From a virus, in the IMG/VR virus record IMGVR_UViG_3300031088_000004: a DNA stretch of 50,043 nt. One strand, 5' to 3'. A program made the translations under genes and the position numbers. Below, one piece after another: positions 1 through 50,043 of the stretch. The notes beneath the pieces were generated by a model that saw only the letters and a program-made list of their open reading frames with translations, was not told where the DNA came from and did not search any database. The first letter of the stretch is position 1; the number at the start of each line of letters is the position of its first letter.

Positions 1-127
1 GGTGGTAGATTGCATAGACCTTCTTCCAATGCTTGCTGTGGTGTTAAGTAACCCGCTTCATACAACAAGCGACTTCGAGCGGGAAACGACTCGTAGATTA
101 CTCCGGATTCTTTGAAAAACGGATCTT
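1..127. repeat. Left copy of exact 127-bp end duplication (circular-assembly overlap)
   Basis: Base-by-base identical to 49917-50043. Confidence 0.95.
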
Positions 128-371
128 CCATTTCTTTGCCGTTCAAAGAGATAACACGATGTAGCGGGAACTGCTCACATACATGTTCGTCTTCCTCTTC
201 CGGAATAATGTCCAAGTGTCCGCGTAAAGCAAATTTGCGATTGCAATAGGATTCGATGATCGAGCTCGCTGTGTTGATCGCTTCCTCGATATACGGCCGC
301 TTTTCTTCCGCTTCTAACCCTAGTTCTTGCTCAATTCGTTCTACAGTCGTGAGCGCGTTCACTTCTAGCAT
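1..371 (-). CDS. Head-tail connector protein (gp6-like), 5' part; continues in frame into 49700..50043 (195 aa in total)
   Basis: ATG at 371 preceded by AAGGAGGT. I translated 371->128 by hand and found no stops (MLEVNALTTVERIEQELGLEAEEKRPYIEEAINTASSIIESYCNRKF...). The frame joins the ORF ending at 49700 across the duplicated 127 bp. Confidence 0.75.
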   Translation of the reverse strand, partial: MLEVNALTTVERIEQELGLEAEEKRPYIEEAINTASSIIESYCNRKFALRGHLDIIPEEEDEHVCEQFPLHRVISLNGKEMEDPFFKESGVIYESFPARSRLLYEAGYLTPQQALEEGLCNLP

Positions 372-382
372 CGTGTACCTCC

Positions 383-628
383 TTATTTATCCGCTTTAGG
401 AGCACGCGGCTTTTTAGCGGGTTTTGTTTCAGTAGGCTTGTCCACCGCTACTTCAATCGGAGGCACTTCTTCCGGATCACTAGGCTTCTTTTCTTCGATA
501 TATTCAGCAAACCCCGCGTTTACCCAGCTCTCAGCTAACGCTTCGTCAACGAACGGTTCCGCGCCCTGGTTGAATACACCAGAGGCGGTACCGACGGAGC
601 GAATGATCTTAACTTGTTTCTGTGTCAT
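383..628 (-). CDS. Small head-module protein of unknown function (81 aa, Pro/Lys/Glu-rich tail)
   Basis: ORF directly downstream of the major capsid gene; ATG start. Confidence 0.6.
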   Translation of the reverse strand: MTQKQVKIIRSVGTASGVFNQGAEPFVDEALAESWVNAGFAEYIEEKKPSDPEEVPPIEVAVDKPTETKPAKKPRAPKADK

Positions 629-662
629 CCTTCAGCACTCCATTCTTTTTAAATCGTTCAGA

Positions 663-1925
663 TTAGGCTTGTTTTAATTTCAACAATGCGAAGGCTTCCG
701 GCTTATCTACGCCACCGCCGACACGTTTTTTGTATTTGAATCCGATCAAGTCATCTTCGATATACAATTCATCAAGACGTTGGACAGTTGATCCTTTACG
801 GTCAACGATCGTGTAACCGCGTTTGAAGTCTCCGAATACCGCTTGAACAGTTCCAGCACCCCATGCCGCGAAGTCGTCTGAGATGTAGTAAGGTTTACCG
901 TTGATTTTGTTCGGGACATCTTCGCCCAATGTTGCTTGCCATACCATGTCTCCATTGGCATTCTTCAACTTACGAAGTGTTTGCTCGAGCTTCGATGAGA
1001 TGACGTATACACCACGACGACGGTGTTGCGCTGGAACGAGATATTCCAAATCAATCAGATCCGTATCAACAACTGATTCGATAGCTGCTGTCGTGTGAAC
1101 TGGAACACCAGTTTTAGTTAAGATGCCTTCTGGCTCTTCAAAGTTATTGCCTCGACCATTTAAGACAGCTGCGTCTTCATCTTCAGCGGCTGCTTGAGCA
1201 AACGATGAACCGAGATATGTTTGCAATTCGAGATCCGTGTCTTCCAATTCGTCGACACCAATCTTAGTCAAGCCGTTCAGGTTTTGGACCCAGATATAAC
1301 GCTCAGATGGTTCGAGTTCTGATTCGAAATCAGACGTTCGTTTAGCGGATGTTTCGATTTTGCCCCAACCAGTTTGAACTTCATTCATGCCGCGTTTACG
1401 AATTTTTTCAGCGGATGTTTTACGGATGTTTACAAGACCGCGGAAGATTGTTTCTTTCGGAAGTTGGCGTTCGATTTCTTCGTCCAACTCAACTGGAACG
1501 ATGATTCGTCCTTTGTCGTCTTCCACCAATGCTTTCCGCTCGTCAGCGCTAAGTCCGCGCTTCCCTTTTCGCATGAACTGATAGAAGGCTTTACTTGCTT
1601 TGACTTTTGCTTCCCGCTCTTCGTCCGTCATTCCATCAGCGGACGCATTCCGGTTTTTCTGTGCAGCTAGACCTTTGATTTGAGTATTAAGATCGTCGAT
1701 GATAACTTGCTGATCTTCCACCTGCTGTTTCACTTCGTTAAAGTCAGGCGCGCCTTCAGTCTTAGCATCGAGCTTTTCTTTAGCGGTTTTTAAGGCTTCT
1801 AAAGCAGACTTCAGTTCTGTTTTTAACCCCTCTACTACTGAATCACTGAAAAACTGAATTCCTTTACCGTGTTTGAATGAGAGTGCATAGACAGGCTTCG
1901 AGCCGATAGCAAATTTCTTTTGCAT
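663..1925 (-). CDS. Major capsid protein, HK97 fold, with N-terminal coiled-coil delta/scaffold domain
   Basis: 420 aa. The first ~110 aa are coiled-coil-rich, followed by a Phage_capsid-like body. It sits after the prohead protease. RBS AAAGGAG. Confidence 0.9.
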   Translation of the reverse strand: MQKKFAIGSKPVYALSFKHGKGIQFFSDSVVEGLKTELKSALEALKTAKEKLDAKTEGAPDFNEVKQQVEDQQVIIDDLNTQIKGLAAQKNRNASADGMTDEEREAKVKASKAFYQFMRKGKRGLSADERKALVEDDKGRIIVPVELDEEIERQLPKETIFRGLVNIRKTSAEKIRKRGMNEVQTGWGKIETSAKRTSDFESELEPSERYIWVQNLNGLTKIGVDELEDTDLELQTYLGSSFAQAAAEDEDAAVLNGRGNNFEEPEGILTKTGVPVHTTAAIESVVDTDLIDLEYLVPAQHRRRGVYVISSKLEQTLRKLKNANGDMVWQATLGEDVPNKINGKPYYISDDFAAWGAGTVQAVFGDFKRGYTIVDRKGSTVQRLDELYIEDDLIGFKYKKRVGGGVDKPEAFALLKLKQA

Positions 1926-2050
1926 GAGTTTCTTGCTCCTTTTTGGTTTGATTTTTTGTCGTTCTTCCTCATGCGGCTTTTGTTCGGCTCAAGTGACTAA
2001 ATATGTACGGCTTGAGTGTTGAAAGTGCATGCCCCGCTGGTTATGCAGGG

Positions 2051-2830
2051 TTAGTTTTTAGCTTCGGTTTTAAATTCGTTGATGAGTGCGGCTAAATCCG
2101 GATCAGGTTGGTAGACTTCGTCGTCCGCTTTTTTGTGCACCGCGTCTAGTAGCGTTTTAAGCGAACTGTTAGCGTCTTCTAGCTCTTGGATTGCCTCTTC
2201 GATGATTGCTTTCTCGTCATCCAGAAGCTCATGTCCTGCTTTAATATCGTTGATCGTGTCCGCTACAAACTGCGAAATATCTTCCTTGAACGTTTTTTCA
2301 ATGCCGTCTCGACGATTCTTAGCGGAAGTGACCACCGCGTTTACGTTTGCCGGGAAGGTGACGACTGATACTTCCATGAGCTTGACCTCTAGCAACGTGC
2401 GGACTCCGCTATCCCGATCATATGATTCTTTGATCGTTCGATAGCCGATAGACATTTTGTTGATCGTTTTGTCCTTCACTAAGACCATTGTGTCTTTACC
2501 GCGAGTTGTCTCGCTGATCTTGACCTTGATGAACAATCCGTTTGCGTCTTCTTTGGCTTCGATGATCTGACCGATTGGTTCATTCCAATCATGCTGCCAT
2601 AAAAACACGAAAGTCTTTTGTTCTTTTAAGGTCTTAGCAAAGGCGCCTTTTTTGATGACGTCTCCCCAGCTGTCCGGTTCACCACCAAATGTAGCGGCAT
2701 AACCCTCGATGATGTTCGTTTCGTCATCTTCAGCCTTAATTTCAAACGGTAGACTCTTGTACTCTACCTCGGCGCCCTTTTTCTTTCGTTCCATGTTCAG
2801 AACGCGATTGATTGCACTTGTAGCTGTCAT
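2051..2830 (-). CDS. Prohead serine protease (HK97 / S78 family)
   Basis: Motifs IEGYAATFG...DSWGDVIKKGAF...WQHD are typical of HK97 prohead proteases. Lies between portal and capsid. RBS AAAGGAGTG. Confidence 0.9.
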   Translation of the reverse strand: MTATSAINRVLNMERKKKGAEVEYKSLPFEIKAEDDETNIIEGYAATFGGEPDSWGDVIKKGAFAKTLKEQKTFVFLWQHDWNEPIGQIIEAKEDANGLFIKVKISETTRGKDTMVLVKDKTINKMSIGYRTIKESYDRDSGVRTLLEVKLMEVSVVTFPANVNAVVTSAKNRRDGIEKTFKEDISQFVADTINDIKAGHELLDDEKAIIEEAIQELEDANSSLKTLLDAVHKKADDEVYQPDPDLAALINEFKTEAKN

Positions 2831-2834
2831 TGTT

Positions 2835-4955
2835 TCACTCCTTTACATAATGTTTCTCTGCACAGCGGCACTTGATCCGCTGTCCTACAGGTAGTTTAGG
2901 ATCACCGGGGAACTGCCCTGGATGTCCTCCGACATCATAAGGCTTGTCCATATCCCTTACTTGTCCATGACAATCGTTGTGTGAGTCACGCTGACGACCA
3001 TCTAAGGTCGTAATCCATTTCTTTTCGAGCTCTAACCCGGTGGATAATGCGCCTTGTTGAGCTCCGTAGTTCGAAGCAGATACAATCTCAGTCCGCGCAA
3101 TGGTAATGGCTCTTCGCGGTCCGAAATCGTCACCATAAATCTTTTGAATGTCTTTGCTGATTGATAGGAAAGATTTTTGTGCTGCCACTCCCTCACTAAT
3201 GACCGAGCGGAGCTTTTCGCGAGTAATTTCATTGATTTTCGTTACTAGATAGACGGAAGTGTCCGCAATGTACTTCTGAATCGCCTGTTTTGCCACTGTG
3301 AAGGCGCGTGAGAAAAATTTCTTATCAAACTCCCCAGCACCTTTACTCGCGTCGTATTCGGCTTTTAAGCGGTTATAATTCCATGTGCCGAAATGTTCAA
3401 CAGTTCCCGTGTAAAGAGCCATCATCGGCTTCTTCCACAGTTCTTCTTGAACGAGCAATTCCTTCTCAAAACCCTCTATCCCGTCGTTAGCAAGAGCCGC
3501 TGATAGTGCCTTGCCTTCTTCAGCTAATCTTTTTGTCAGCAATTTTTCAGCGGATTTGTACCAAGGTGCTCTCTCTGCTTCGATTAATTCAAAAAAAGCT
3601 GCATCCTCTTCAGTCGAATTATCCTTTTGTTGCAGGTTGTTCAGCATATTTTCAATGGACTTGATACTGTTTCCGAGCGGATCGTCTGTTTTGATCATCG
3701 TTGACGAGTCACCCGCATTTTTTGCTGGTTCCTCATCTGATTCATCTGAGGCGTCTGGCGTGTCTCCTTTTGGCGTTCGTAATTTACTCGCTTTACCGCC
3801 TACTGGCGTGTAACCAAGTGCCTCACGTCCTTCATCCGGGCTCAGTATGCCTTCTTTGACCGCTTCGTTAATTCGTTTCCACTTAGAATCGGTGTTTTCT
3901 TGCAAGGCTTCGATTCGATCCTTGTCTACTTCGATAATCAAGTTACGACCAAAGGACGGTACCAGCTGAGCATTAAGTAAGTCTACGAAGTTCCCGACAA
4001 AAGGAAGGATCGTCTCCTCGTAGAAGGAGGAACGAGCTTCTTTGTAGTTCGAGTACGTTTTATTCTGGCCATCTCCTACAATCTCAGGAGGCACGTTAAA
4101 AGCGGCGCAAATTTCGATACGATCTAATAGCTTCAAGTCCTTAAAACCAACCTCATTCGAATTGAATCCTGTCGCATGGTACGTTGCCCCATCTGTAAGG
4201 AGTGGTACTTTCCCGACATTCCGCTTTCCACCAAACATTTTTTTGATTTGAGCGTTCATCCGTTCAAACGTACTCGGTTGAACCTGTCCCGCCATCGTAA
4301 TGACGCCCGGTGGCATTCCTCCGTTATCCAGCAAGACCTTATTCCAGCTGTCTGCGCTTGCATCCATGTCAATATTCCGCGCGGCTACTTTCATCGGTGA
4401 TACTCCGTCAAGGACGTTCATCGGATTGAATAGCTTATAGAACATGACTTGATCATTTTGCAACAAGGCTTCTGTTCCGTCGCTTTTACGGTACTTATAG
4501 CCTGCTATGAATTCTTCTTGTCCGGGAATTGGTGCCACTTGGTCAGGACGTAACATCCACAGCTCTAAGATGTTCTTAAAACCATCCGCTGTGACTTTCT
4601 CGATGAATGAACTTCCACCGATCAGCAAGTATTTCGCCCATTCCTCGCGAAACTGACGTCCAGATTGATAGGGATTCGGTTTCCGTAAGAGATCGAGCAA
4701 CTCATGTTCTTCAATTTCGACCTTTCTCTTCCCCCGCTTTTCATACAACAATAGCGGGACATCTGCGGCAGCGGTGGCAATTGCATTGATACAGGCATAG
4801 ACCCATACATTGGCGTCATGCCCTTCCTCTGCAAAGCGGTCGTACTTTTTCGCTCCCCATTGTGGTTCTCCTGGTCGAGTCATATACATCGTGGAATGAG
4901 CAGCGACTGCCTTCGTCAAAACGATTCTTTTCATCTCCTGAAATATGTTGTTCAC
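2835..4955 (-). CDS. Portal protein (HK97-family N-terminal part) fused to a Mu F / SPP1 gp7-like head-morphogenesis domain
   Basis: 706 aa. Portal-like N-terminus, an acidic linker (DTPDASDESDEEP), and a C-terminus with ARTEIVSASNYG...TTLDGRQRDSH...CRC, typical of Phage_Mu_F. GTG start at 4955; the start is uncertain (an alternative ATG lies at 4934). Confidence 0.85.
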   Translation of the reverse strand: MNNIFQEMKRIVLTKAVAAHSTMYMTRPGEPQWGAKKYDRFAEEGHDANVWVYACINAIATAAADVPLLLYEKRGKRKVEIEEHELLDLLRKPNPYQSGRQFREEWAKYLLIGGSSFIEKVTADGFKNILELWMLRPDQVAPIPGQEEFIAGYKYRKSDGTEALLQNDQVMFYKLFNPMNVLDGVSPMKVAARNIDMDASADSWNKVLLDNGGMPPGVITMAGQVQPSTFERMNAQIKKMFGGKRNVGKVPLLTDGATYHATGFNSNEVGFKDLKLLDRIEICAAFNVPPEIVGDGQNKTYSNYKEARSSFYEETILPFVGNFVDLLNAQLVPSFGRNLIIEVDKDRIEALQENTDSKWKRINEAVKEGILSPDEGREALGYTPVGGKASKLRTPKGDTPDASDESDEEPAKNAGDSSTMIKTDDPLGNSIKSIENMLNNLQQKDNSTEEDAAFFELIEAERAPWYKSAEKLLTKRLAEEGKALSAALANDGIEGFEKELLVQEELWKKPMMALYTGTVEHFGTWNYNRLKAEYDASKGAGEFDKKFFSRAFTVAKQAIQKYIADTSVYLVTKINEITREKLRSVISEGVAAQKSFLSISKDIQKIYGDDFGPRRAITIARTEIVSASNYGAQQGALSTGLELEKKWITTLDGRQRDSHNDCHGQVRDMDKPYDVGGHPGQFPGDPKLPVGQRIKCRCAEKHYVKE

Positions 4956-4970
4956 CCCCTTTCCAGCGGT

Positions 4971-6374
4971 TTATCCTAGCTCGTAGAATTCCGGTTCTGT
5001 TTTCATCATGAAGCGGTTAAGCGCTTGGCTCATAGCATCCACGTCATCGTCATGTGCCGCGAACGGGAAGGAAACGATCTGCTCGATGAAATCGAATACC
5101 CACGGAGCAATTGACGGATCCGGAAGGTATACGTTCCCCGCTTCCCAATACGGCGCAATGGCGGAAACCCGCGCAATCTTGGTGCCGATTGGTTCTACCG
5201 GGATGATTCCAGGTATCTCACGTTTTAACGTCGAGATTACCGCTGGACCATTTGCCTTGTCCTCAATGAGAATTCGGTTTGAACGATGTTTTGCGTTGAA
5301 TGCTCGAATGGCTGCAAGCGTAGCGGTAAAGTCCATGACATCGTTCACGCGGTCAATGAGATACATATCCGCACCTAAGCGACCCCACTTCTGACCAGAC
5401 ACGCTGTCGGCGCCCACGCTGTCCTTGAACGTAAGGTCCCAGCTTTCCAGTACATCATTTTCGACACCGCTCGGTAACACAGTGTAGAACTTGATTTGAT
5501 TCCGCTTAATCATTGCCCCTTCGCCCGGTGCAGGTCTTTGCTGGAATAAGGCATCCCATGTACGTGAACCAACTTCAATCTTTTTGGTTTTTGCCCATTC
5601 CTCGTCATATCCAAGTTCAGGACACAACGCTTCACCGATGGCACGACCGAGTAGATCATCCTCTTCAGCGATAGCGGGTAAACGAATTCTCGTCCATTCC
5701 CTCGCTTTGTTTTGCAGAAGTCGAGCAACAAGGTCGTCTTCATGCCACCGCGTCATAATGACAACGACAGAGGCGTTCGTGTGCAATCGCGTTGACAATG
5801 TTGATTCCCACTCATCCCACACCTTTTTCCGTATGGTTGGCGAGTTCGCTTCAGTTGCGTTTTTAAACGGATCATCAATCATCAGCAAGTCTGCACCCTG
5901 ACCAGTGATTGACCCTCCGATACCAGTAGCAATCATGCCACCGGCTCTACCTTCGATGGACCAGTCGTTAGTTGAGCGGTTCTCCTTGCTGACCTTTACA
6001 CCGAACAAGTGACCATGCTCAGTGATCTTGTCGCGGTTAAGGCGACCGAACTTCCGAGCAAGAGAATCACTGTATGATGTCGCAATCACCCGCTTGTCGG
6101 GATTCTTAGCGAGATAGAAGCTAGGAAACGATTCCGTACCCGATAAAGACTTCCCGTGGCGCGGAGGTAATTCGATGATCACGAAGCGGGATTCTCCGTC
6201 CGCTATGCGTTGGAGCTCGTTTGCAATCAACAATGTGTGCCGGAAGTGACGATAGCGTCCCTTATGGGCATATACCAGATAATCGCGGTAATTCCGTTTA
6301 GCTAGAGTCTTTTTTGCTCTCTCCGCTATTTGTTGGAGTGACTGTTGGCTTAGTTTTTCTTTTGGGACTCCCAA
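4971..6374 (-). CDS. terL: Terminase large subunit
   Basis: Walker A PPRHGKS, Walker B LLMIDDPF and a C-terminal nuclease region. TTG start with G-rich RBS. Overlaps terS by 25 nt. Confidence 0.9.
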   Translation of the reverse strand: MGVPKEKLSQQSLQQIAERAKKTLAKRNYRDYLVYAHKGRYRHFRHTLLIANELQRIADGESRFVIIELPPRHGKSLSGTESFPSFYLAKNPDKRVIATSYSDSLARKFGRLNRDKITEHGHLFGVKVSKENRSTNDWSIEGRAGGMIATGIGGSITGQGADLLMIDDPFKNATEANSPTIRKKVWDEWESTLSTRLHTNASVVVIMTRWHEDDLVARLLQNKAREWTRIRLPAIAEEDDLLGRAIGEALCPELGYDEEWAKTKKIEVGSRTWDALFQQRPAPGEGAMIKRNQIKFYTVLPSGVENDVLESWDLTFKDSVGADSVSGQKWGRLGADMYLIDRVNDVMDFTATLAAIRAFNAKHRSNRILIEDKANGPAVISTLKREIPGIIPVEPIGTKIARVSAIAPYWEAGNVYLPDPSIAPWVFDFIEQIVSFPFAAHDDDVDAMSQALNRFMMKTEPEFYELG

Positions 6375-6985
6375 TCGTCATCCCCCCCAACATTCGGATC
6401 AGCCAGCTGAATGAGTTTTTCCAAGTCTTCCGTCGACATCTCCTCGAGCGGATCTTTGGATGTGCTGTTATTTTGTATGATGTGTTCAATTTTGCTTTCG
6501 GCTTTCCACTTCTTCGAATCACGATTCGCTAACCAGAACATCATTGCGCGGACATCTCCCGGTTGATGCTTTTTCACACTTTTCGTGAGAATTTGCTTAG
6601 TTCTAGGAATCGAAAGGATAAATCGCTCTCGTTCTTCTGGTGACGCCTTTTTGTTCTTTTTGTTCCAGATTGCAAGTTCAACATCCACGATCAAGTCATA
6701 TTCTTCCTGACTCATCTTGACCGTTTCATACGTGTCTTCTGTGTAGTCATATCCTGTCGCGCGCTTATGTAGCGAGTTCGAAACCTCGTAATCCGCGACT
6801 TCCTTCCCCGCGCGTAAAGCGTGCAAAATGGGAAAGTGTTTGTCTTGCCAGTTATACAGCGTCCGTCGAGAAATTTTAATCGCTGCTGCAATATCATCCA
6901 TTGTCATGCCGTCTTTTGCCCATCCTTCAAGGAGAATCAGCTTATCCGGCTCTAACCAGTCTTTTGCGTATACTCTACCTGCCAT
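6350..6985 (-). CDS. terS: Terminase small subunit (HTH type)
   Basis: N-terminal HTH (MTMDDIAAAIKISRRTLYNWQ). Lies directly upstream of, and overlapping, terL. RBS AAAGGGGTG. Confidence 0.75.
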   Translation of the reverse strand: MAGRVYAKDWLEPDKLILLEGWAKDGMTMDDIAAAIKISRRTLYNWQDKHFPILHALRAGKEVADYEVSNSLHKRATGYDYTEDTYETVKMSQEEYDLIVDVELAIWNKKNKKASPEERERFILSIPRTKQILTKSVKKHQPGDVRAMMFWLANRDSKKWKAESKIEHIIQNNSTSKDPLEEMSTEDLEKLIQLADPNVGGDDDWESQKKN

Positions 6986-22360: not shown

Positions 22361-22403
22361 ATGTGTGTCCCTCGATTTCCCTCTTACTAGGTTTTCAGAC
22401 CTG

Positions 22404-22437
22404 TAACTTGTAAGTCATACCCCTATAACTTGTAAGT
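22404..22437. repeat. Two 12-bp direct repeats TAACTTGTAAGT (period 22 bp), intergenic
   Basis: 22404-22415 and 22426-22437. Confidence 0.85.
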
Positions 22438-22457
22438 AACAGGGGATGAAGCATGTG

Positions 22458-25475: not shown

Positions 25476-25498
25476 CCTATGACGAGGTGAAAACAAAA

Positions 25499-27040
25499 AT
25501 GAGTAATAGTAAAACGTCGGTCGCCTTGAACGTGGCGATCTACCTTAGAAAAAGTAGAACAGATATAGAAGAAGAAAGAAAAGCTCGAGAAGCTGGTGAA
25601 ACGTATGACACACTCAGCCGGCACCGGAAACAACTTATGGATATTGCCCGTCGTGAAGGGTACCATGTCGTAGACATCTTTGAAGAAGTCGTGTCTGGTG
25701 AATTCCTCAGTGAACGTGAGCAAGCGACTGAGATGCTTCGTAAGGTCCAGCTAGGCTATTATGACGCGGTACTATGCGTCGACGTTGATCGTCTTAGTCG
25801 TGGTGGAAAACAGGATGAATACCGCATCGAAACAGCGTTTAAACAATCCGGTACCATTTTAATCACAACAGACGAAGTAATCGACTTCAGCGAAGAAAGC
25901 CAAGAGTTAAATAATGACCTTAAACTCATGCTGTCGCGGATTGATCATAAGAAGATCAAGAAACGCCTTCACGCAGGTCGCCTTCGTTCAACCAGTGAAG
26001 GGAAGGAAATGAGCACGAAACCCCCTTACGGTTATCATAAAGACGAAAATTTGAAACTCGTTATATTTGAACCAGAAGCGCGAATCGTCCGGAAAATTTA
26101 TCAATGGAGTCTCGAAGGAGTCGGCCGCGTTAAGATCGCGGAAAGGCTAACCGACATGGGCATCCCTTCACCATCGGGAAAGGGTGAGTGGGGACATGCT
26201 AGTGTGCGCCGAATCCTAAAGAGTCCGAAGTATAAAGGCGCCATGTTCTTCGGTAAAAATCAATCGATAAAATCCGAAGGCAGCGGCTATGTCAAAAAAG
26301 TTCGTCGTGACGAAAAGAAATATGTGTATAAAGAAGATGCGCATGAACCGATTATCTCCCGCGAAGATTGGGAAGCGGTTCAAGAAGGCATGCTAAATCG
26401 TAAAACGAACGTTAATCCAAATAAAACACTAATCAACCCTTTCGCATCCCTTATCAAGTGTAAAAAATGTGGTCATACTTTATTGGCCAACAATCCGAAA
26501 ACAAGACCAAGTATTTATTTATACTGCAGCACAAAAGACTGTGATACGAAAATGATTTCGACAGATAAAGTTGAAGCTGCTGTGCTTGATTATCTAAGAG
26601 ACACACTGGACCAACTGAACGTATCTGAAGATGGTCAAAACTATAATGAGCAATTAGAGAAAGAAACAATTATAGAGATTCAACGAATCGAACAAGAGAT
26701 CGAGGAAGACGCAGAGCGACGCGATAAACTTCACGATCTTATCGAAAACGGCACGTACGATAAAGCGACATTCCTGGATAGAATGCGTGTGATCACAGAA
26801 CGTCGGAAAAATTATGATCAACAATTGCATCGACTTCATAGACGCCTTGAACAGCTGCAAGATCAGACACAAGGTAAGAAAGACTTAAAACCACTTATAG
26901 AGAACGTCCTCGAAAAATATAAGCCAGAATTATCAGCTGGCGAAAAGAACGAACTTTTAAAGAGCGTGATCCATGTTATCCGATACCAGCGCGATCGCGA
27001 CTGGAAACATTTTAAATTAGACATCGAATTAAAATATTGA
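25499..27040 (+). CDS. int: Large serine recombinase (integrase)
   Basis: Has a resolvase catalytic domain (IYLRKSRTD, DRLSRGG), a recombinase domain (PPYGY...GIPSPSGK.EW), a zinc ribbon (CKKCGH...CSTKDC) and a C-terminal coiled coil. The ATG at 25499 lies 9 nt after GAGGTG. Confidence 0.92.
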   Translation: MSNSKTSVALNVAIYLRKSRTDIEEERKAREAGETYDTLSRHRKQLMDIARREGYHVVDIFEEVVSGEFLSEREQATEMLRKVQLGYYDAVLCVDVDRLSRGGKQDEYRIETAFKQSGTILITTDEVIDFSEESQELNNDLKLMLSRIDHKKIKKRLHAGRLRSTSEGKEMSTKPPYGYHKDENLKLVIFEPEARIVRKIYQWSLEGVGRVKIAERLTDMGIPSPSGKGEWGHASVRRILKSPKYKGAMFFGKNQSIKSEGSGYVKKVRRDEKKYVYKEDAHEPIISREDWEAVQEGMLNRKTNVNPNKTLINPFASLIKCKKCGHTLLANNPKTRPSIYLYCSTKDCDTKMISTDKVEAAVLDYLRDTLDQLNVSEDGQNYNEQLEKETIIEIQRIEQEIEEDAERRDKLHDLIENGTYDKATFLDRMRVITERRKNYDQQLHRLHRRLEQLQDQTQGKKDLKPLIENVLEKYKPELSAGEKNELLKSVIHVIRYQRDRDWKHFKLDIELKY

Positions 27041-27046
27041 TCCTCT

Positions 27047-27090
27047 CTCCTGTCCGCGATTCTGTAGACAGGAGATTTTTTGTCTTTTTT
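27047..27090 (+). terminator. Integrase terminator
   Basis: CTCCTGTC-N12-GACAGGAG followed by ATTTTTTGTCTTTTTT. Confidence 0.7.
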
Positions 27091-27434
27091 AGCTTCTGTC
27101 CCCTCCAAAAACCGTTTTAACCGTACACAGGATGAACCGCGATGTTCATATCGAGACCAAACCACCGTACATTTTTTTGCAAAAAAGATGCCCAAGCTGG
27201 ACATCTCATTCAGTAAATTCGTTTTTCCGAACGAAAATACTTTTCGTAGACAAACTGTTTACTCTGTGAATTAAATTACCATTTTGCTTTCGTGGCTTCA
27301 TGATAACATGCGAACAAGTGTTTGCAAACTAGAAACTTTAAAATTTTAAGCGATAACAATTTTTTCATCGGTCCTATTTCATACCCCGGTGGGTGCTTCC
27401 AGATAAATTACTAACTTTAGAATTTTGTTGGAAA

Positions 27435-27478
27435 CAAAAAAGGACGCCTGTCTGCTTCAGGCGTCCTTTTATTTATTG
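27435..27478. terminator. Strong bidirectional rho-independent terminator
   Basis: 10-bp GC-rich stem AGGACGCCTG/CAGGCGTCCT, flanked by an A6 run and TTTTATTTATT. Confidence 0.8.
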
Positions 27479-27738
27479 AGTTGTCTTCATGCTCGTTACT
27501 AAAAATTTTTTCACCCTGTAGAGCTTCAGTTAAGGATCAAGCAATTTAAAGCGCTAGAAATTTGTACATAACAGGCTTAAAAAGCTGTATTCTCAACATT
27601 CAACTCCTTTCTGGTGCGTGAATTGTGGTTTTCATCGACTTGTTCGTGTTCTTTCGCTCTGCCCTCTAGCAAGTTATTCGATCACTGGTCAGCGACTATA
27701 TCCCCAATACCACTAGATGCTCGATCGAGCACCCTACA
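27435..27738 (-). ncRNA. Candidate ~300-nt transcript without a credible long ORF (ncRNA or 17-codon peptide mRNA)
   Basis: Bounded by the promoter at 27745-73 and the terminator at 27435-78. The only RBS-linked ORF is 27546-27599 (MLRIQLFKPVMYKFLAL). Confidence 0.3.
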
Positions 27739-27744
27739 AAAATT

Positions 27745-27773
27745 ATTGTACTTCCAATTTCCTACGTTTTCAA
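27745..27773 (-). promoter_or_regulatory. Near-consensus sigma-A promoter TTGAAA-17-TACAAT
   Basis: I derived the hexamers and the 17-nt spacer by hand from the reverse complement. It lies 35 nt downstream of the endolysin stop. Confidence 0.55.
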
Positions 27774-27807
27774 TCAATTTTTTGGTATTTTCGTAAGAAA
27801 ATTAATT

Positions 27808-28737
27808 TTAGAACAACATGCTCCATGTCTCTGGACCTACTCGACCGTCAATTTCCAACTTCTTTCGTTTCTGATAGGCTTTGACGGCTGCCGTTGTCGC
27901 TGCATCGAATTTCCCTGTCGGATCCACCTTAACCGCGCGCTGGATGCGTTCAATGTCTTTTTTGTTCATGCCCTCTGCTTTTGCGTGATAGACCTTACCC
28001 GGATAAGGAACAAGGTCCTTCGATTTGCTTGCAGCTGGTTTCGGTTTTGAAGCGGCTTTCGGTTTGACGACTTTGAGCACGTCCCCCGGATAGATAACTG
28101 TATTCTTCAGACCATTCCACTTCATCAGATCCGCAACAAGGACTTTGTGTTGTTCTGAAATCTCACTCAATGTATCGCCTTTCTTCACCTTGTATGTTGC
28201 CGCCTTTTCGGTATCTTTAGGGATTGTTACCGGATTGTTGGCATCTTTTGAACTTGTAGGTGGTTTGGCTCCTGCCCGTAGCTGAGTTGTTGTTAATCCG
28301 AACGTATACTCGAGGTGAGGAGCGTCCGGGAATCCGCGCCAGTCACCGCCCCATGCGAATCCAAGGCTTTTGGCGATTGCGACGACTTCCGCCCAGTCCG
28401 CTTTTCCATCGCGATCATAGTCGACTTTCTGGTCCCATACGACTTGCTGTCCACTTGGTGTGTACAGCGCGAAGTCGATGGCGAGTCCAAAGTTATGATT
28501 GGAATAGCCACCCGGTGCGTTCGTAACGATCTTCTCCTTGTTTCCATAGCGTCCTTTCGCATACAAGGCATCCTGTTCAGCAATCGAACGATAACCTTGT
28601 GTGATGCATACAGGGACACCAGCTGCATGAGCGCGTTTGACAAGTTCTTTCCCCATGCTGGCGACGATCGGGTTCATACCTTTCACGTTTAAGCGGACGT
28701 TCGACTTCTCTTGCAATGTTTTTAAGTCCATGATCAA
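27808..28737 (-). CDS. Endolysin: M15 (VanY / L-Ala-D-Glu peptidase-like) + LysM + PG_binding_1
   Basis: GYRSIAEQDALY...SNHNFGLAIDF...GGDWRGFPDAPH; a LysM segment YKVKKGDTLSEIS; and a C-terminal AVKAYQKRKKLEIDGRVGPETW. Confidence 0.9.
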   Translation of the reverse strand: MIMDLKTLQEKSNVRLNVKGMNPIVASMGKELVKRAHAAGVPVCITQGYRSIAEQDALYAKGRYGNKEKIVTNAPGGYSNHNFGLAIDFALYTPSGQQVVWDQKVDYDRDGKADWAEVVAIAKSLGFAWGGDWRGFPDAPHLEYTFGLTTTQLRAGAKPPTSSKDANNPVTIPKDTEKAATYKVKKGDTLSEISEQHKVLVADLMKWNGLKNTVIYPGDVLKVVKPKAASKPKPAASKSKDLVPYPGKVYHAKAEGMNKKDIERIQRAVKVDPTGKFDAATTAAVKAYQKRKKLEIDGRVGPETWSMLF

Positions 28738-29385: not shown

Positions 29386-29415
29386 ATAAAAACAGAACGA
29401 CCTGAAAAAGGTCGT
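29386..29415 (-). terminator. Terminator between the tail-fibre genes and the lysis cassette
   Basis: ACGACCT-TTTTC-AGGTCGT followed by TCTGTTTTTAT on the minus strand. Confidence 0.6.
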
Positions 29416-29487
29416 CCTATTGGGATTTTCATAGTTTGTACATATGGTCGCGGAACGTTTAAAGCAATTATACACTATGCACTTAAG

Positions 29488-46377: not shown

Positions 46378-46827
46378 TTATGTAGTAAATTCGGTACCTT
46401 TCGAACTTGCGAAGAGATTGTCGATGTAATCGAGCGCTTCTTTCGCGGTGTTGACTTCGATTTCGTCCTTCTTGGTGGAACCATCTCCGAAGCCGTGTTG
46501 ATCCCAGAACTCGAGTAGTGAGATCATCTTCGCGTCTTTTCCTGCGACTAACCCTTTGATGGTCTCCGTTACTTTCCAAGCGACGAGTGAGTGTTGCTTG
46601 AACTGCATCTTGATTTCCTCTTGCTCGAGTTCAGCGGTGAGTTGACTCAGCTCCTTAAAGCGAGCGTAAGGAATGGATAAGACGTGCTCATCCGTATAGC
46701 CGTAACGACGCGAGATGCGGTCTATAGCGATCAGAATCTTTTTCGACTTTTCCTCTTCGGTTAGTTCAATGTCGCTTCCGGAGTCTTCTTCTCTTTCGGA
46801 AGTAGTCTTTTGATCGCCTTGAAAAAA
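46378..46827 (-). CDS. gpT-like -1 frame extension of the tail assembly chaperone (G-T fusion, ~305 aa)
   Basis: The -1 frame is open from 46857 to 46378 and overlaps the end of gpG. The slippery heptamer T TTT TTC lies at 46821-46827 in the gpG frame. Confidence 0.7.
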   Translation of the reverse strand, partial: FFQGDQKTTSEREEDSGSDIELTEEEKSKKILIAIDRISRRYGYTDEHVLSIPYARFKELSQLTAELEQEEIKMQFKQHSLVAWKVTETIKGLVAGKDAKMISLLEFWDQHGFGDGSTKKDEIEVNTAKEALDYIDNLFASSKGTEFTT

Positions 46828-47294
46828 GACTTGAGGTCCGGTGCTTTCACGATAGCTTCAATAATCTCGACAGCGACGTCTAATGGAATCGACTTTGTTT
46901 CTTCTTCCGGTAACCCAATAAGAGTAGCCAGTAACGGATAGACATCCTTTTCCGCGTCCTCGACGGACATGAAGAGGTTCAATGCCGTTTGAATCATGCG
47001 TTCCTGCCGCTCTTCTTCACGCGCCGCTTCTCCTGCTTTCCATTTAGCAAGACGTTCGTCATATAATAACTTCTCGTTTTCATCGAATTCTGCGATTTGT
47101 TCTTCTGTAAGCTGTACGAAATAGGAATCCGATTTGACGTCCATGTCGCGGATCATGCTCGAGAATTGATGAACGATACCCGCGCTTTTCAAGATACGAA
47201 TGAATTGAAAGGCATTTTGTAGACCAAGACGTTTGACCGTATGTTCCTTACCGTTAATTGTTACTTTTACTGGTTGATGAATTAAATTTTCCAT
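46761..47294 (-). CDS. Tail assembly chaperone (gpG-like)
   Basis: 177 aa and acidic, between the major tail and tape measure genes. RBS GAGGAGG. Confidence 0.75.
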   Translation of the reverse strand: MENLIHQPVKVTINGKEHTVKRLGLQNAFQFIRILKSAGIVHQFSSMIRDMDVKSDSYFVQLTEEQIAEFDENEKLLYDERLAKWKAGEAAREEERQERMIQTALNLFMSVEDAEKDVYPLLATLIGLPEEETKSIPLDVAVEIIEAIVKAPDLKSFFKAIKRLLPKEKKTPEATLN

Positions 47295-47372
47295 GTGTAG
47301 TGCCTCCTCGAGATAATTGAAATAGGAAGACCGCCCCTTGAAACGAGACGGTCTAGCTTATGCGTTTAGTGA

Positions 47373-48209
47373 TTAACCTTGTGTGATTGTGTAGTTGTAA
47401 TCGACAACAGCAGACGTTTGGAAACCTTCAACAGCCACTACACGAAGCGTTGTTGTCTTCGTGATGTCGATAGGGTTCTTATACTCGAATCCGTTGTTAG
47501 GCGAAGGATATGAACCATCTAGCGTATAGTAGGCTTTCGCTTGTCCTGTCACAGCAACTGTCACTTTTTGAGCTTCCGCGTACTCTCCTGCAGCTGGTGA
47601 GACAGCTGGTGCCGAAAGTGGAGAACCACCCTTTGGATAGAGGATGTAGAACGGAATTTTGGTCGGGTTTGCTGGATCGAACATACCTTCAAACTCCGTT
47701 TTCAGAACCACGTCATCTTTTCCGGTACCCATTGGAAGCTCGAGCGGATCTGTCGCTTGTGCATTTTCGATAACAATGACGATTGGATCCAGACTCCCGA
47801 CCTTTGCACCAAACAAAGCGACGTTTTGTGTCGGTGCCGGAGCAACGGAACCGTCATGTTCCAATTTGTCATAGCGCTCATTAAGGCTCGTTGATTTAAA
47901 AATGTTTAGCTTCATGAGTAAGTTTTCTTTCGATACCTCGAGTAAGTTTGTCGAAAGTTTAGACTCCGCTTTTGTTACCCAACGCATCCCTTTCACCTTT
48001 CCAAGTGCTCCGTCCGGCTCTGTATCGTGCCATTCAAGATCAAGGTTCGCTGTGTTTCCGCCCTTAGTAGCACCTAGCATGACGCCCCATGTTGCGCGGT
48101 CATCTGGATTGAAGATTGCTAAGTTAAATCCTTTTGTTAAAAGTCCCGGTCCAATCACTAAATTTTCAGCGGATCGTCCGTTTAATCCATTCATCATTTG
48201 ATAGCTCAT
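47373..48209 (-). CDS. Major tail protein with a C-terminal Ig-like (chitobiase/hexosaminidase C-terminal type) domain
   Basis: The ATG at 48209 lies 9 nt after GGAGGA. The C-terminus has SPAAGEY...AYYTLDGSYPS...Y..PI.I...TTLRVVA. Confidence 0.75.
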   Translation of the reverse strand: MSYQMMNGLNGRSAENLVIGPGLLTKGFNLAIFNPDDRATWGVMLGATKGGNTANLDLEWHDTEPDGALGKVKGMRWVTKAESKLSTNLLEVSKENLLMKLNIFKSTSLNERYDKLEHDGSVAPAPTQNVALFGAKVGSLDPIVIVIENAQATDPLELPMGTGKDDVVLKTEFEGMFDPANPTKIPFYILYPKGGSPLSAPAVSPAAGEYAEAQKVTVAVTGQAKAYYTLDGSYPSPNNGFEYKNPIDITKTTTLRVVAVEGFQTSAVVDYNYTITQG

Positions 48210-48238
48210 TAGTGTGTTTCCTCCTCTGTGTATTGTCG

Positions 48239-48703
48239 TCAATCGACAAGTAAATCATTTCGAACGTAATGAAGCTCGATTTTGACATTACGACATTTTA
48301 CTGACGGATCCGGCTGAGGAACGTTCAAAGCGGAGCGGACATATGACACCCGCGCCCCCGTTCCGATGCCATCCGGACTATCCGCGAAATGACGGTCTCG
48401 AAATAACTTTTCAATCTTGCCAGAAATCTCGATAGCCAGACTGCGGGTACCCTCAACGAAAATGTCTATAGAGACTAAGGCGTTGCCGAATAAGTTATTC
48501 GCTGCCATTGTGTCTGCCTCTTCGCGGAGGACGATGTACGGACGTCTCATGCCATCAGGAACGACGTCCTGAGCAATATTCGAGTACTCTCGTTCTTCAT
48601 AGGTATTCTCATCAAGCGCTTGATACGTCCCGAGAAGTTTTGTAATGCGCGGTTCCGCTTCAATGAGCTCCTGAACGATGTCCAATGAATAAAGGCGCGT
48701 CAT
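48239..48703 (-). CDS. Tail completion / terminator-like protein
   Basis: 154 aa, immediately upstream of the major tail gene. Assigned by synteny. Confidence 0.5.
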   Translation of the reverse strand: MTRLYSLDIVQELIEAEPRITKLLGTYQALDENTYEEREYSNIAQDVVPDGMRRPYIVLREEADTMAANNLFGNALVSIDIFVEGTRSLAIEISGKIEKLFRDRHFADSPDGIGTGARVSYVRSALNVPQPDPSVKCRNVKIELHYVRNDLLVD

Positions 48704-49221
48704 GTTCCACCTCGTTTCAACATTTCCTGTATATCGGCTTTCTTCAGGTGCCAGGTTGGTGCCATATACGGTCGTGCCTTCAAGTTGTGATAACGTCCTT
48801 CACGATCCTTTCCGACAAAACCGAATTCAAGCGCTTTGGCGTAAATAACATTGACCGGACCGACATACCCGCGATACATCTCATCTGTTTCCTCAAATTC
48901 GTACTGAAACGACGTTTTAAGTTGTCCGCGCAAGACAGCGGGTGGCGACCCCGGAGAGGACGCTTGATGCATCTTTGCTCCGACTAATTTCGTTACTGTC
49001 TGCTTATAACCGAGTTTGTTGGTGATCTGTACCTTTTCAAGACGACCTGTTTCCGGACGAATCGGGTACTTCTTCCCGGTCCCTTGTTGGTTGACGGTCT
49101 CGATCAATTCGTTTCGTAATTCCATCGTGGCTTTGACGACGTTCCGCTTAGCGCGGGCAATCAGTTCATGCTTCACTTCTTCGGTATGTGAGATCATTCG
49201 GAACGAGCTCGACACTTTCAT
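48700..49221 (-). CDS. HK97 gp10-family head-tail joining protein
   Basis: ...HQASSPGSPPAVLRGQLKTSF...GYVGP..VIYAKALEFG... pattern. Confidence 0.65.
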   Translation of the reverse strand: MKVSSSFRMISHTEEVKHELIARAKRNVVKATMELRNELIETVNQQGTGKKYPIRPETGRLEKVQITNKLGYKQTVTKLVGAKMHQASSPGSPPAVLRGQLKTSFQYEFEETDEMYRGYVGPVNVIYAKALEFGFVGKDREGRYHNLKARPYMAPTWHLKKADIQEMLKRGGT

Positions 49222-49223
49222 GT

Positions 49224-49703
49224 TTATGTCGCCCCCTTAATGACCAGCATTGTGGCTTCTCCCTTCGTGACGACTTCATAAGGGATGTCCATGAGCTTGA
49301 TCGGTGCTTCGTATGTGATGCCTTGCTTACCTGGATCAAGTGGCGTCTCCATCAGTTCATAGAGCTCGTCTCCATGCGGACCACCAACCTTCCCGCGAAT
49401 AACAGGAATGACACGATCAGCAGTCTTCCCTACTGGATCAAGCATCATGACGCGGAGCAAGGATTCAGATTCTTCTTGTCCATTCTCTAGCTGTATGTTG
49501 TTCAGGGATGCTCCTGAACGCGAAATCGTATAGAAATGCGCTTGGACGCGCCCGATCAGCTTGAAGTGTTCACCAAACTCGGTCTTGCCTCGTACCGCGA
49601 TTTTCTTGAAGACCAGTGCTTCGTCTTTCAAAAGTGATTTCGCTGTATTCAACATGACTTTCCGTCTCATTTTTTCAAGGCTTGCATTCGCTTTCCGTCT
49701 CAT
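49224..49703 (-). CDS. Head-closure / head-tail adaptor candidate
   Basis: 159 aa, between the connector and gp10-like genes; ATGA-coupled. Assigned by position only. Confidence 0.45.
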   Translation of the reverse strand: MRRKANASLEKMRRKVMLNTAKSLLKDEALVFKKIAVRGKTEFGEHFKLIGRVQAHFYTISRSGASLNNIQLENGQEESESLLRVMMLDPVGKTADRVIPVIRGKVGGPHGDELYELMETPLDPGKQGITYEAPIKLMDIPYEVVTKGEATMLVIKGAT

Positions 49704-50043
49704 CCGAGCGCCGACTTTCGATAAGGACGTAACAAGGCTTGGACATCATCCGGAATGTAGTCACTCGGACCACCGGTGGCGGAAAGAGCGGCTTTCATGT
49801 CGCCTAATTCGAACGATTTCAGCGCGGCTGTCGTGGCTGCTACTTCGCGTTCTGAGGCGTCTTCGTCGTCCGAATAGACGTACTTCACTAAATCGATGCA
49901 AGCACGCTCGAGATCAGGTGGTAGATTGCATAGACCTTCTTCCAATGCTTGCTGTGGTGTTAAGTAACCCGCTTCATACAACAAGCGACTTCGAGCGGGA
50001 AACGACTCGTAGATTACTCCGGATTCTTTGAAAAACGGATCTT
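49700..50043 (-). CDS. Head-tail connector protein (gp6-like), 3' part of the gene that starts at 371
   Basis: The open frame runs to the window edge, and 49917-50043 duplicates 1-127. Confidence 0.75.
   Translation of the reverse strand, partial: DPFFKESGVIYESFPARSRLLYEAGYLTPQQALEEGLCNLPPDLERACIDLVKYVYSDDEDASEREVAATTAALKSFELGDMKAALSATGGPSDYIPDDVQALLRPYRKSALG
49917..50043. repeat. Right copy of the exact 127-bp end duplication
   Basis: Identical to 1-127. Confidence 0.95.

What the first reader, a model, noticed from the sequence alone, without database searches (positions are those of the whole stretch)
27435..27773. Orphan promoter-to-terminator unit with no real ORF between the lysis cassette and the integrase (candidate ncRNA or micro-peptide moron)
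A near-consensus promoter TTGAAA-17-TACAAT (27745-73, minus strand) lies 35 nt past the endolysin stop. It fires toward the strongest terminator in the window (27435-78), about 300 nt away. The 5' end of the predicted RNA carries the 14-bp perfect palindrome TGCTCGATCGAGCA (27718-31). The only RBS-linked ORF is 17 codons long (27546-27599, MLRIQLFKPVMYKFLAL). Prophage ends next to att sites are the classic place for lysogeny-expressed morons, type I toxin/antitoxin RNAs and sRNAs.
Basis: partly seen in the sequence, partly recalled or inferred. Interest (0 to 1): 0.6.

Follow-up and report, generated by a model that had tools for sequence, protein, structure and literature searches.

The report
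Conserved ORF-less phage small-RNA unit
Just after the lysis genes of a temperate Bacillales phage lies a strongly conserved promoter-to-terminator unit with no conserved protein. It most likely makes a roughly 300-nt structured small RNA of an undescribed family; expression is untested.

Summary
The window is a whole, circularly permuted temperate phage genome in its unintegrated form.

Two metagenomic phage contigs (L094, L095) carry the same endolysin-to-integrase gap. Synonymous (4-fold) sites of the flanking genes differ by 31-53%.
- **Promoter:** the -35 to +1 stretch is 0% diverged. It is the most conserved part of the 4.3 kb compared.
- **Other conserved parts:** the 5' hairpin, a Shine-Dalgarno plus ATG island, its pairing partner and the terminator.
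- **Fast-evolving parts:** the RNA interior drifts with 1-nt indels.
- **Tiny ORF:** it gives 17, 14 and 17 codons with unrelated peptides after residue 4-9, so a micro-peptide or type I toxin is unlikely.
- **Fold:** the three copies fold independently into the same architecture, with six compensatory pairs against 0-2 in slid controls.

No Rfam family matches, and no other homologue was found.

No terminator separates the endolysin stop from this unit. The same sequence is therefore also the 3' UTR of the lysis mRNA.

A second conserved promoter-terminator unit follows at 27327-27176.

Best reading (about 0.5): an independently transcribed non-coding RNA, a new family of a known kind.

The parts
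27774..27845 (-). Last ~36 nt of the endolysin gene (stop at 27808-27810) plus an A/T-rich spacer upstream of the -35 box. Possible UP element or regulator-binding DNA.
   Evidence: Divergence is 0-9% among the three genomes. The endolysin C-terminal region just upstream (about 27846-27995) differs by about 12-40%.
27745..27773 (-). Promoter P1: -35 TTGAAA (27773-27768), 17-nt spacer, -10 TACAAT (27750-27745). Predicted start near 27738.
   Evidence: 10/12 match, one of 7 such sites in 100 kb of strand. All 29 columns are invariant, as are the next 10.
27715..27734 (-). 5'-proximal hairpin built on the 14-bp palindrome (27718-27731).
   Evidence: The only substitution (A to G in L094) leaves a U-G pair on this strand. 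It would give C-A on the other strand.
27618..27713 (-). 5' domain: one long interrupted hairpin of four stacked helices.
   Evidence: The same topology appears in three independent MFE folds. Four pairs changed on both sides, in helices 4 and 6. Interior divergence is 22-39%.
27588..27611 (-). Conserved Shine-Dalgarno (GAAAGGAG) plus ATG/TTG island.
   Evidence: Divergence is 4-8%, with 23 of 25 columns invariant. It is predicted to pair with 27520-27535 in all three copies.
27546..27599 (-). Tiny ORF, 17 codons in the window.
   Evidence: The relatives have 14 and 17 codons, 1-nt indels and peptides that are not conserved. After the start island, nucleotide divergence is 36-40%, within the range of the 4-fold sites.
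27520..27535 (-). Partner strand that sequesters the Shine-Dalgarno and start codon.
   Evidence: It is a conserved island in an otherwise variable stretch. Its changes are mostly wobble-compatible.
27431..27478 (.). Bidirectional intrinsic terminator T1. It ends the small RNA and, by position, the lysis transcript.
   Evidence: Two compensatory pairs (G-C to A-U) occur in L094 and L095.
27270..27335 (-). Second conserved block holding promoter P2: -35 TTGCAA, -10 TATCAT with an upstream TG (27327-27300).
   Evidence: 57 of 66 columns are invariant.
27176..27269 (-). Variable body and conserved terminator T2 (27176-27205) of a second ORF-less unit of about 90-115 nt.
   Evidence: T2 diverges by 3-10% and the interior by 22-47%. 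The 113-aa ORF at 26863-27204 starts inside T2 and has no counterpart in L094.
27105..27175 (.). Conserved block with the dyad ATGAAC-N6-GTTCAT, next to the integrase terminator (27047-27090). Possible attP, unproven.

Best explanation
The stretch 27431-27773 (minus strand) is a small non-coding RNA gene of a temperate Bacillales siphophage.

Inferred steps:
- A strong sigma-A-type promoter, placed 34 nt after the endolysin stop, starts transcription near 27738.
- The transcript runs about 300 nt to a strong intrinsic terminator.
- The RNA begins with a stable hairpin. A long interrupted hairpin follows. A second hairpin then locks a Shine-Dalgarno plus AUG motif against a conserved downstream partner. 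An A/U-rich spacer and the terminator complete it.
- The promoter resembles none of the operator-bearing early promoters. It is probably host-polymerase driven and active in the lysogen, as a moron would be.
- The RNA would act as a regulatory RNA in trans. The 5' hairpin, and possibly ribosome contact at the Shine-Dalgarno, would keep it stable.
- During lytic growth the same sequence is the 3' UTR of the lysis mRNA. The layout is that of an sRNA with its own promoter that shares the mRNA's terminator.

Shown here: the sequence features, their conservation, the absence of a conserved ORF and the shared predicted fold.

Not shown: transcription, timing of expression and the target.
For: - **Synteny:** two independent phage contigs carry the same endolysin-to-integrase gap.
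- **Neutral baseline:** 4-fold degenerate sites differ by 31-48% in the endolysin and 49-53% in the integrase.
- **Selection:** against that baseline the -35 to +1 stretch is 0% diverged, the next 35 nt (5' hairpin to +45) 9-14%, the Shine-Dalgarno/ATG island 4-8% and the terminator 9-28% with compensatory stem changes. This block has the highest identity in the 4.3 kb compared.
- **No coding signal:** 1-nt indels occur throughout, the tiny ORF's frame and length are not kept, and no ORF is conserved on either strand beyond what DNA identity alone gives.
- **Structure:** the three sequences fold independently into the same architecture. The consensus has 93% of cells paired and 6 pairs changed on both sides, against 0-2 in six slid controls and 1 of 500 shuffles.
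- **Promoter quality:** it is among the 7 best sigma-A-like sites in the genome.
Against: - No expression data exist.
- Only three sequences are available, and the tested structure was derived from them.
- Fold stability of the window's own copy is unremarkable (z of -0.7 to -1.4 without the terminator).
- Much of the RNA body evolves at close to the neutral rate. Selection may therefore act on the promoter DNA rather than on the RNA.
- No Rfam family matches.
- No complementarity longer than 14 nt to the rest of the phage was found, so no target can be named.
- The terminator would be needed anyway to end the lysis operon.
Confidence: 0.5

Rival explanations
1. The conserved block is DNA-level machinery, such as a regulator-binding site, a recombination or module-boundary sequence, or attP itself. 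The terminator simply ends the lysis operon and shields the convergent integrase gene. Any RNA made from the promoter has no function of its own.
For: - Conservation is strongest over the untranscribed promoter DNA and reaches about 70 nt upstream of the -35 box.
- The RNA interior drifts at nearly the neutral rate.
- The perfect palindrome could be an operator.
- The three integrases are 87-91% identical to one another, so they should share an invariant attP. The two longest invariant runs in the gap are this block and the P2 block.
Against: - The invariant block matches a promoter element by element (-35 box, 17-nt spacer, -10 box).
- The terminator stem, the Shine-Dalgarno strand with its partner, and helices 4 and 6 show compensatory or wobble-only change. 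That is an RNA-level signature.
- Dyad symmetry around any centre in 27435-27830 is at most 12 of 24. That is background level and below my hand count of about 16/23 for Bxb1 attP, a sequence recalled from memory.
- The palindrome's centre is itself symmetric, which suits a serine-integrase crossover poorly (established knowledge of serine integrases).
Confidence: 0.2
2. The unit is a vestigial moron cassette. A former cargo gene between the ribosome-binding site and the terminator was lost, leaving promoter, Shine-Dalgarno, start codon and terminator.
For: The conserved skeleton is exactly that of an expression cassette: promoter, Shine-Dalgarno, ATG and terminator. The body between them is poorly conserved and full of indels.
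Against: - Promoter and Shine-Dalgarno stayed invariant through a divergence that nearly saturated synonymous sites, so they are still under selection.
- The 5' domain upstream of the Shine-Dalgarno keeps a shared fold.
- None of the three genomes carries a cargo gene there.
Confidence: 0.12
3. The unit encodes a translated micro-peptide (14-17 aa), or is a type I toxin mRNA whose Shine-Dalgarno is sequestered.
For: The Shine-Dalgarno and start codon are strong and highly conserved. They are sequestered in a conserved helix, as in type I toxin mRNAs. The location suits a prophage accessory gene.
Against: - The peptides are MLRIQLFKPVMYKFLAL, MLRNKRFSSLLMYN and MLRISDFKPIYLRITKS. Two 1-nt insertions shift the frame in L094.
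- They are basic, contain proline in two of the three, and are too short for a membrane helix.
- No antisense promoter turned up in the consensus scan of the window.
- Translation as such, for instance to stabilise the RNA, is not excluded.
Confidence: 0.07
4. The unit acts in cis. Transcription from P1 and P2 runs toward the attP region and the 3' end of the convergent integrase gene. It would tune integration or integrase expression by interference or antisense read-through.
For: Two conserved tandem promoters both point at the integrase 3' end. The geometry recalls control elements that lie downstream of int in other phages (established knowledge: lambda sib).
Against: Three good terminators (T1, T2 and the integrase's own) lie between P1 and the integrase coding sequence, so little read-through is expected.
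Confidence: 0.08

Closest known systems
Prophage/phage-encoded regulatory sRNAs and ORF-less 'moron' units (reviewed in PMC12197685; accessory-locus transcription in lysogens, PMC7067206)
   Same: It is a self-contained promoter-to-terminator unit. It sits in the accessory position after the lysis genes and has a host-type promoter.
   Different: It matches no described family (Rfam gathering and E-value scans are empty). The host is an uncultured or unnamed Bacillales lineage. Expression and target are unknown.
3' UTR-type sRNAs with their own promoter that share the terminator of the upstream mRNA (established knowledge of enterobacterial examples such as DapZ and MicL)
   Same: The promoter lies immediately after the upstream stop codon. 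No terminator intervenes, so sRNA and mRNA would end at the same terminator.
   Different: The unit lies in a Gram-positive phage late operon. No chaperone or seed region is known, and processing was not examined.
Type I toxin mRNAs of Firmicute prophages (bsrG/SR4, txpA/RatA, fst; established knowledge)
   Same: The RNA is about 300 nt and structured. It has a 5' hairpin, a sequestered Shine-Dalgarno and a strong terminator that reads on both strands, and it lies in a prophage accessory region.
   Different: There is no conserved hydrophobic peptide. No antitoxin promoter was found.
STAB-SD and strong-Shine-Dalgarno 5' stabilisers of Bacillus mRNAs (PMC4113751; hbs mRNA, PMC5737220)
   Same: A strong Shine-Dalgarno is conserved although it does not precede a conserved gene. 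The sequence GAAAGGAG fits the motif as I recall it.
   Different: Here the Shine-Dalgarno is predicted to be base-paired rather than exposed. It lies about 130 nt from the 5' end, behind a large hairpin.

Membership tests
Any Rfam 15 family | Covariance-model score at or above the family's gathering threshold | tested here: not met
   One search found 0 matches in the whole window. In one search the best sub-threshold hits (22.8 bits against 60, and 20 against 70) are terminator look-alikes.
Type I toxin-antitoxin (toxin mRNA) | Conserved small hydrophobic membrane peptide | tested here: not met
   the peptides are 17, 14 and 17 aa, are frameshifted and basic, and share only the first 3-4 residues and F7.
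Type I toxin-antitoxin (toxin mRNA) | Antisense or convergent antitoxin RNA with its own promoter | tested here: not met
   no plus-strand promoter-like site between 25476 and 28958. This was a consensus scan only.
Type I toxin-antitoxin (toxin mRNA) | Shine-Dalgarno sequestered by mRNA structure | tested here: met
   a 14-pair helix covers the Shine-Dalgarno and AUG in all three copies (93% of cells paired).
Phage moron (accessory transcription unit) | Own promoter and own terminator, placed between functional modules | tested here: met
   at sequence level only.
Phage moron (accessory transcription unit) | Carries a protein-coding cargo gene | tested here: not met
   no conserved ORF on either strand.
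Phage moron (accessory transcription unit) | Expressed from the repressed prophage | not testable with these tools
Structured ncRNA (general criterion) | Helices supported by compensatory substitutions beyond controls | tested here: inconclusive
   6 pairs changed on both sides against 0-2 in slid controls and 1 of 500 shuffles. Only 3 sequences were available, and the structure was derived from them.
3' UTR-type sRNA with internal promoter | Promoter at or after the end of the upstream ORF, with the terminator shared with that mRNA | tested here: met
   no terminator lies between 27808 and 27470 on the minus strand.
Large-serine-recombinase attP | Quasi-palindromic site of about 40-50 bp around a non-palindromic central dinucleotide | tested here: inconclusive
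   the best dyad score inside 27435-27830 is 12/24, which is background. The best in the gap is 13/24, at 27415, 27268 and 27146. No attB or integrated copy was available.

The most novel reading that the evidence does not exclude
The two tandem ORF-less units (P1-RNA1-T1 and P2-RNA2-T2) beside the serine integrase would form an RNA-based part of the lysogeny module. They might govern integration or excision at the adjacent attP, or control the host gene reached after integration. Alternatively they might act as RNA decoys against a host defence. This phage shows no recognisable CI-type repressor or directionality factor.
Probability: 0.06. Interest if true: 0.75.

Novelty: new member of a known kind. 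Interest (0 to 1): 0.4.

Why it matters
Small RNAs of temperate phages that infect Gram-positive bacteria are little explored (my assessment). This unit is under clear purifying selection and has no protein product. It has a defined promoter, fold and terminator, and it sits beside the integrase. It is therefore a tractable candidate for asking what a phage gains from an RNA expressed at the lysis/lysogeny junction. If it proves to be only regulatory DNA plus a late-operon terminator, it is ordinary phage architecture.

Tried and rejected
Searches for homologues that found nothing beyond L094 and L095:
- Rfam gathering and permissive scans, and ARAGORN for tRNA or tmRNA.
- blastn of the gap against phage records (with a wider 5-kb query matched only endolysin coding sequence) and against plasmids.
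- Integrase as a single query in IMG/VR and in GTDB genomes.
- Four exact or degenerate motif scans of IMG/VR for the invariant blocks.
- nhmmer of the gap alignment against 173 fetched loci.
- Covariance model R1 of the 5' half against 179 loci plus the window. The only other hit was 16 bits at E 0.53.
- A 400-genome sample of one bacterial class (reached through a Bacillus locus), searched with the endolysin to find the host. The best hit was 57% identity over the catalytic domain only.

Other dead ends:
- A complementarity search of the gap against the rest of the phage gave nothing longer than 14 nt.
- A duplex-energy scan for targets gave uninterpretable long-loop duplexes and was discarded.
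- GATC sites in the conserved islands were considered as Dam-type control. This was rejected because GATC is over-represented genome-wide, at 1.6 times expectation.
- The plus-strand 60-aa frame at 27614-27796 is open in all three copies. It has no ribosome-binding site, and its protein identity equals what the DNA identity alone gives.
- The dyad-symmetry search for attP was not decisive.

- As a result, the closest Logan relatives (integrase 74-87% identical, endolysin 77-87%) could not be fetched, and no reads could be laid.

Full report
**1. Context**

On the minus strand the window reads tail genes, holin (29311-28754) and an M15/LysM/PG-binding endolysin (28737-27808). A 767-nt gap follows. 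Next comes a large serine recombinase on the plus strand (25487-27040), then a 90-aa XRE protein, SSB and early genes.

Terminase, portal, prohead protease and capsid lie at 6985-663. They continue into the head-tail genes at the far end of the window. The window is therefore essentially a whole, circularly permuted phage genome of about 50 kb. It is in the unintegrated arrangement, not a prophage end next to host DNA.

No whole genome is held for the window. The nearest named endolysin, from Exiguobacterium sp. Leaf187, is 61% identical. The closest relatives of both endolysin and integrase come from Logan or metagenome assemblies only.

**2.

- The promoter, palindrome, terminator and 17-codon ORF are at the stated coordinates.
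- The promoter is one of seven sites scoring at least 10/12 on the two strands of the window.
- The palindrome is unique in the window.
- The terminator hairpin is second best on the minus strand by energy. It has the better T run, and it also reads as a terminator on the plus strand.
- The integrase has its own terminator at 27047-27090.

**3. Relatives**

An alignment of close endolysins (A1) pulled two metagenomic contigs:

| Locus | Contig length | Endolysin identity |
|---|---|---|
| L094 | 49,241 bp | 91% |
| L095 | 6,987 bp | 87% |

Both carry the same gap followed by the same integrase. Every other search for homologues of the gap was empty.

**4. Pattern of selection**

The neutral yardstick is the divergence at 4-fold degenerate sites of the flanking genes. 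It is 31-48% in the endolysin and 49-53% in the integrase. Pairwise divergence of each segment:

| Segment | Divergence |
|---|---|
| Last 23 nt of the endolysin gene | 0-4% |
| Spacer upstream of -35 | 6-9% |
| -35 to -10 | 0% |
| Discriminator and +1 | 0% |
| 5' hairpin to +45 | 9-14% |
| 5'-domain interior | 22-39% |
| Shine-Dalgarno/ATG island | 4-8% |
| Rest of the tiny ORF | 36-40% |
| Shine-Dalgarno partner region | 15-27% |
| A/U-rich spacer | 30-56% |
| Terminator T1 | 9-28% |

In a 50-nt sliding comparison this promoter block is the identity peak of the whole 4.3 kb for all three pairs. A peak shared by all pairs points to selection rather than a recent exchange between two of the genomes.

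**5. Not a protein**

- The tiny ORF reads MLRIQLFKPVMYKFLAL in the window, MLRISDFKPIYLRITKS in L095 and MLRNKRFSSLLMYN in L094.
- The underlying nucleotides align well but carry single-base insertions that shift the frame.
- Stop-to-stop frames on both strands match only as far as DNA identity predicts.
- The 60-aa plus-strand frame has no ribosome-binding site.
- The 113-aa ORF at 26863-27204 begins inside a conserved terminator hairpin and has no counterpart in L094.

**6. RNA structure**

Each of the three sequences, folded alone, gives the same layout:
- a 5' hairpin on the palindrome;
- one long interrupted hairpin (27618-27713);
- a hairpin that pairs the Shine-Dalgarno and AUG with 27520-27535;
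- an open A/U-rich spacer;
- the terminator.

Support from the alignment:
- The RNAalifold consensus has 75 pairs, and 93% of cells are paired.
- Six pairs changed on both sides, three of them in helix 4, one in helix 6 and two in the terminator.
- The six slid controls gave 0-2 such pairs, and 1 of 500 shuffles reached six.
- The single change in the palindrome (A to G in L094) keeps a U-G pair on this strand only.

Limits on this evidence:
- There are only three sequences, and the tested structure was derived from them.
- Fold z-scores without the terminator are -0.7 for the window, -2.0 for L094 and -2.9 for L095.

**7. What else lies in the gap**

- No terminator stands between the endolysin stop and T1. 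T1 must therefore also end the lysis transcript, and the unit doubles as that mRNA's 3' UTR.
- After T1 comes a second invariant block (27335-27270). It holds a good promoter with an upstream TG.
- That promoter is followed by a variable body of about 90-115 nt and a conserved terminator (27176-27205). This is a second ORF-less unit.
- A conserved block with a short dyad (27105-27175) then abuts the integrase terminator.
- attP could not be assigned. Dyad scores in the gap are at background level, and no integrated copy was available.

**8. Interpretation**

- **Most economical reading:** a small non-coding RNA gene with a host-type promoter, of a family not yet described. By position it works like a moron, and by layout like a 3' UTR-type sRNA.
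- **Unexplained feature:** the conserved Shine-Dalgarno/AUG strand, which is more conserved than its pairing partner. It may support ribosome contact that stabilises the RNA, as described for Bacillus mRNAs (PMC4113751, PMC5737220). It may instead be a pairing surface for a target.
- **Main rival:** selection acts on the promoter block as DNA, and the RNA is incidental. The near-neutral drift of much of the RNA body keeps that rival alive.
- **Lower-ranked rivals:** a vestigial expression cassette, a translated micro-peptide, and cis interference with the integrase.

**9. Limits**

Expression, timing, target and host are unknown. Two tools that could have extended the evidence were unavailable.

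Noticed in passing
window 27176-27335 (minus strand): A second conserved ORF-less unit. Promoter TTGCAA / TG-extended TATCAT is invariant in three genomes, the body of about 90-115 nt is variable, and a conserved terminator closes it. It lies inside the stretch another note called the probable attP region.
   Followed up: partly
window 26863-27204 (minus strand): The 113-aa ORF that overlaps the integrase 3' end is probably spurious. Its ATG lies in the T2 terminator hairpin, and L094 has no matching ORF.
   Followed up: yes
whole window: GGCC occurs 8 times against about 140 expected (ratio 0.06). CTAG is also depleted (0.35). This suggests avoidance of a GGCC-cutting restriction system in the host.
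   Followed up: no
window 1-6985 and 46761-50043: Terminase, portal, protease and capsid at the start of the window continue into head-tail and tail genes at its end. The window is a complete, circularly permuted phage genome rather than an integrated prophage.
   Followed up: partly
window 29392-29440 (minus strand): A good intrinsic terminator (hairpin -16.1 kcal/mol plus a T run) lies between the last tail gene and the holin. The lysis cassette may therefore be a separate transcription unit.
   Followed up: no
window 27396-27434: A quasi-palindrome TTCCA-N27-TGGAA lies directly after T1 and is partly conserved in the relatives. It ties for the best dyad score in the gap (13/24), but its central bases differ among the three genomes.
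   Followed up: partly
window 25487-25498: The identical database protein P0001 has 513 aa. The integrase probably starts four codons downstream of the GTG listed by the ORF finder.
   Followed up: no
window 22397-22446: A strong dyad/direct-repeat element (score 16/24, repeated TAACTTGTAAGT) lies in the intergenic gap next to the replication gene.
   Followed up: no
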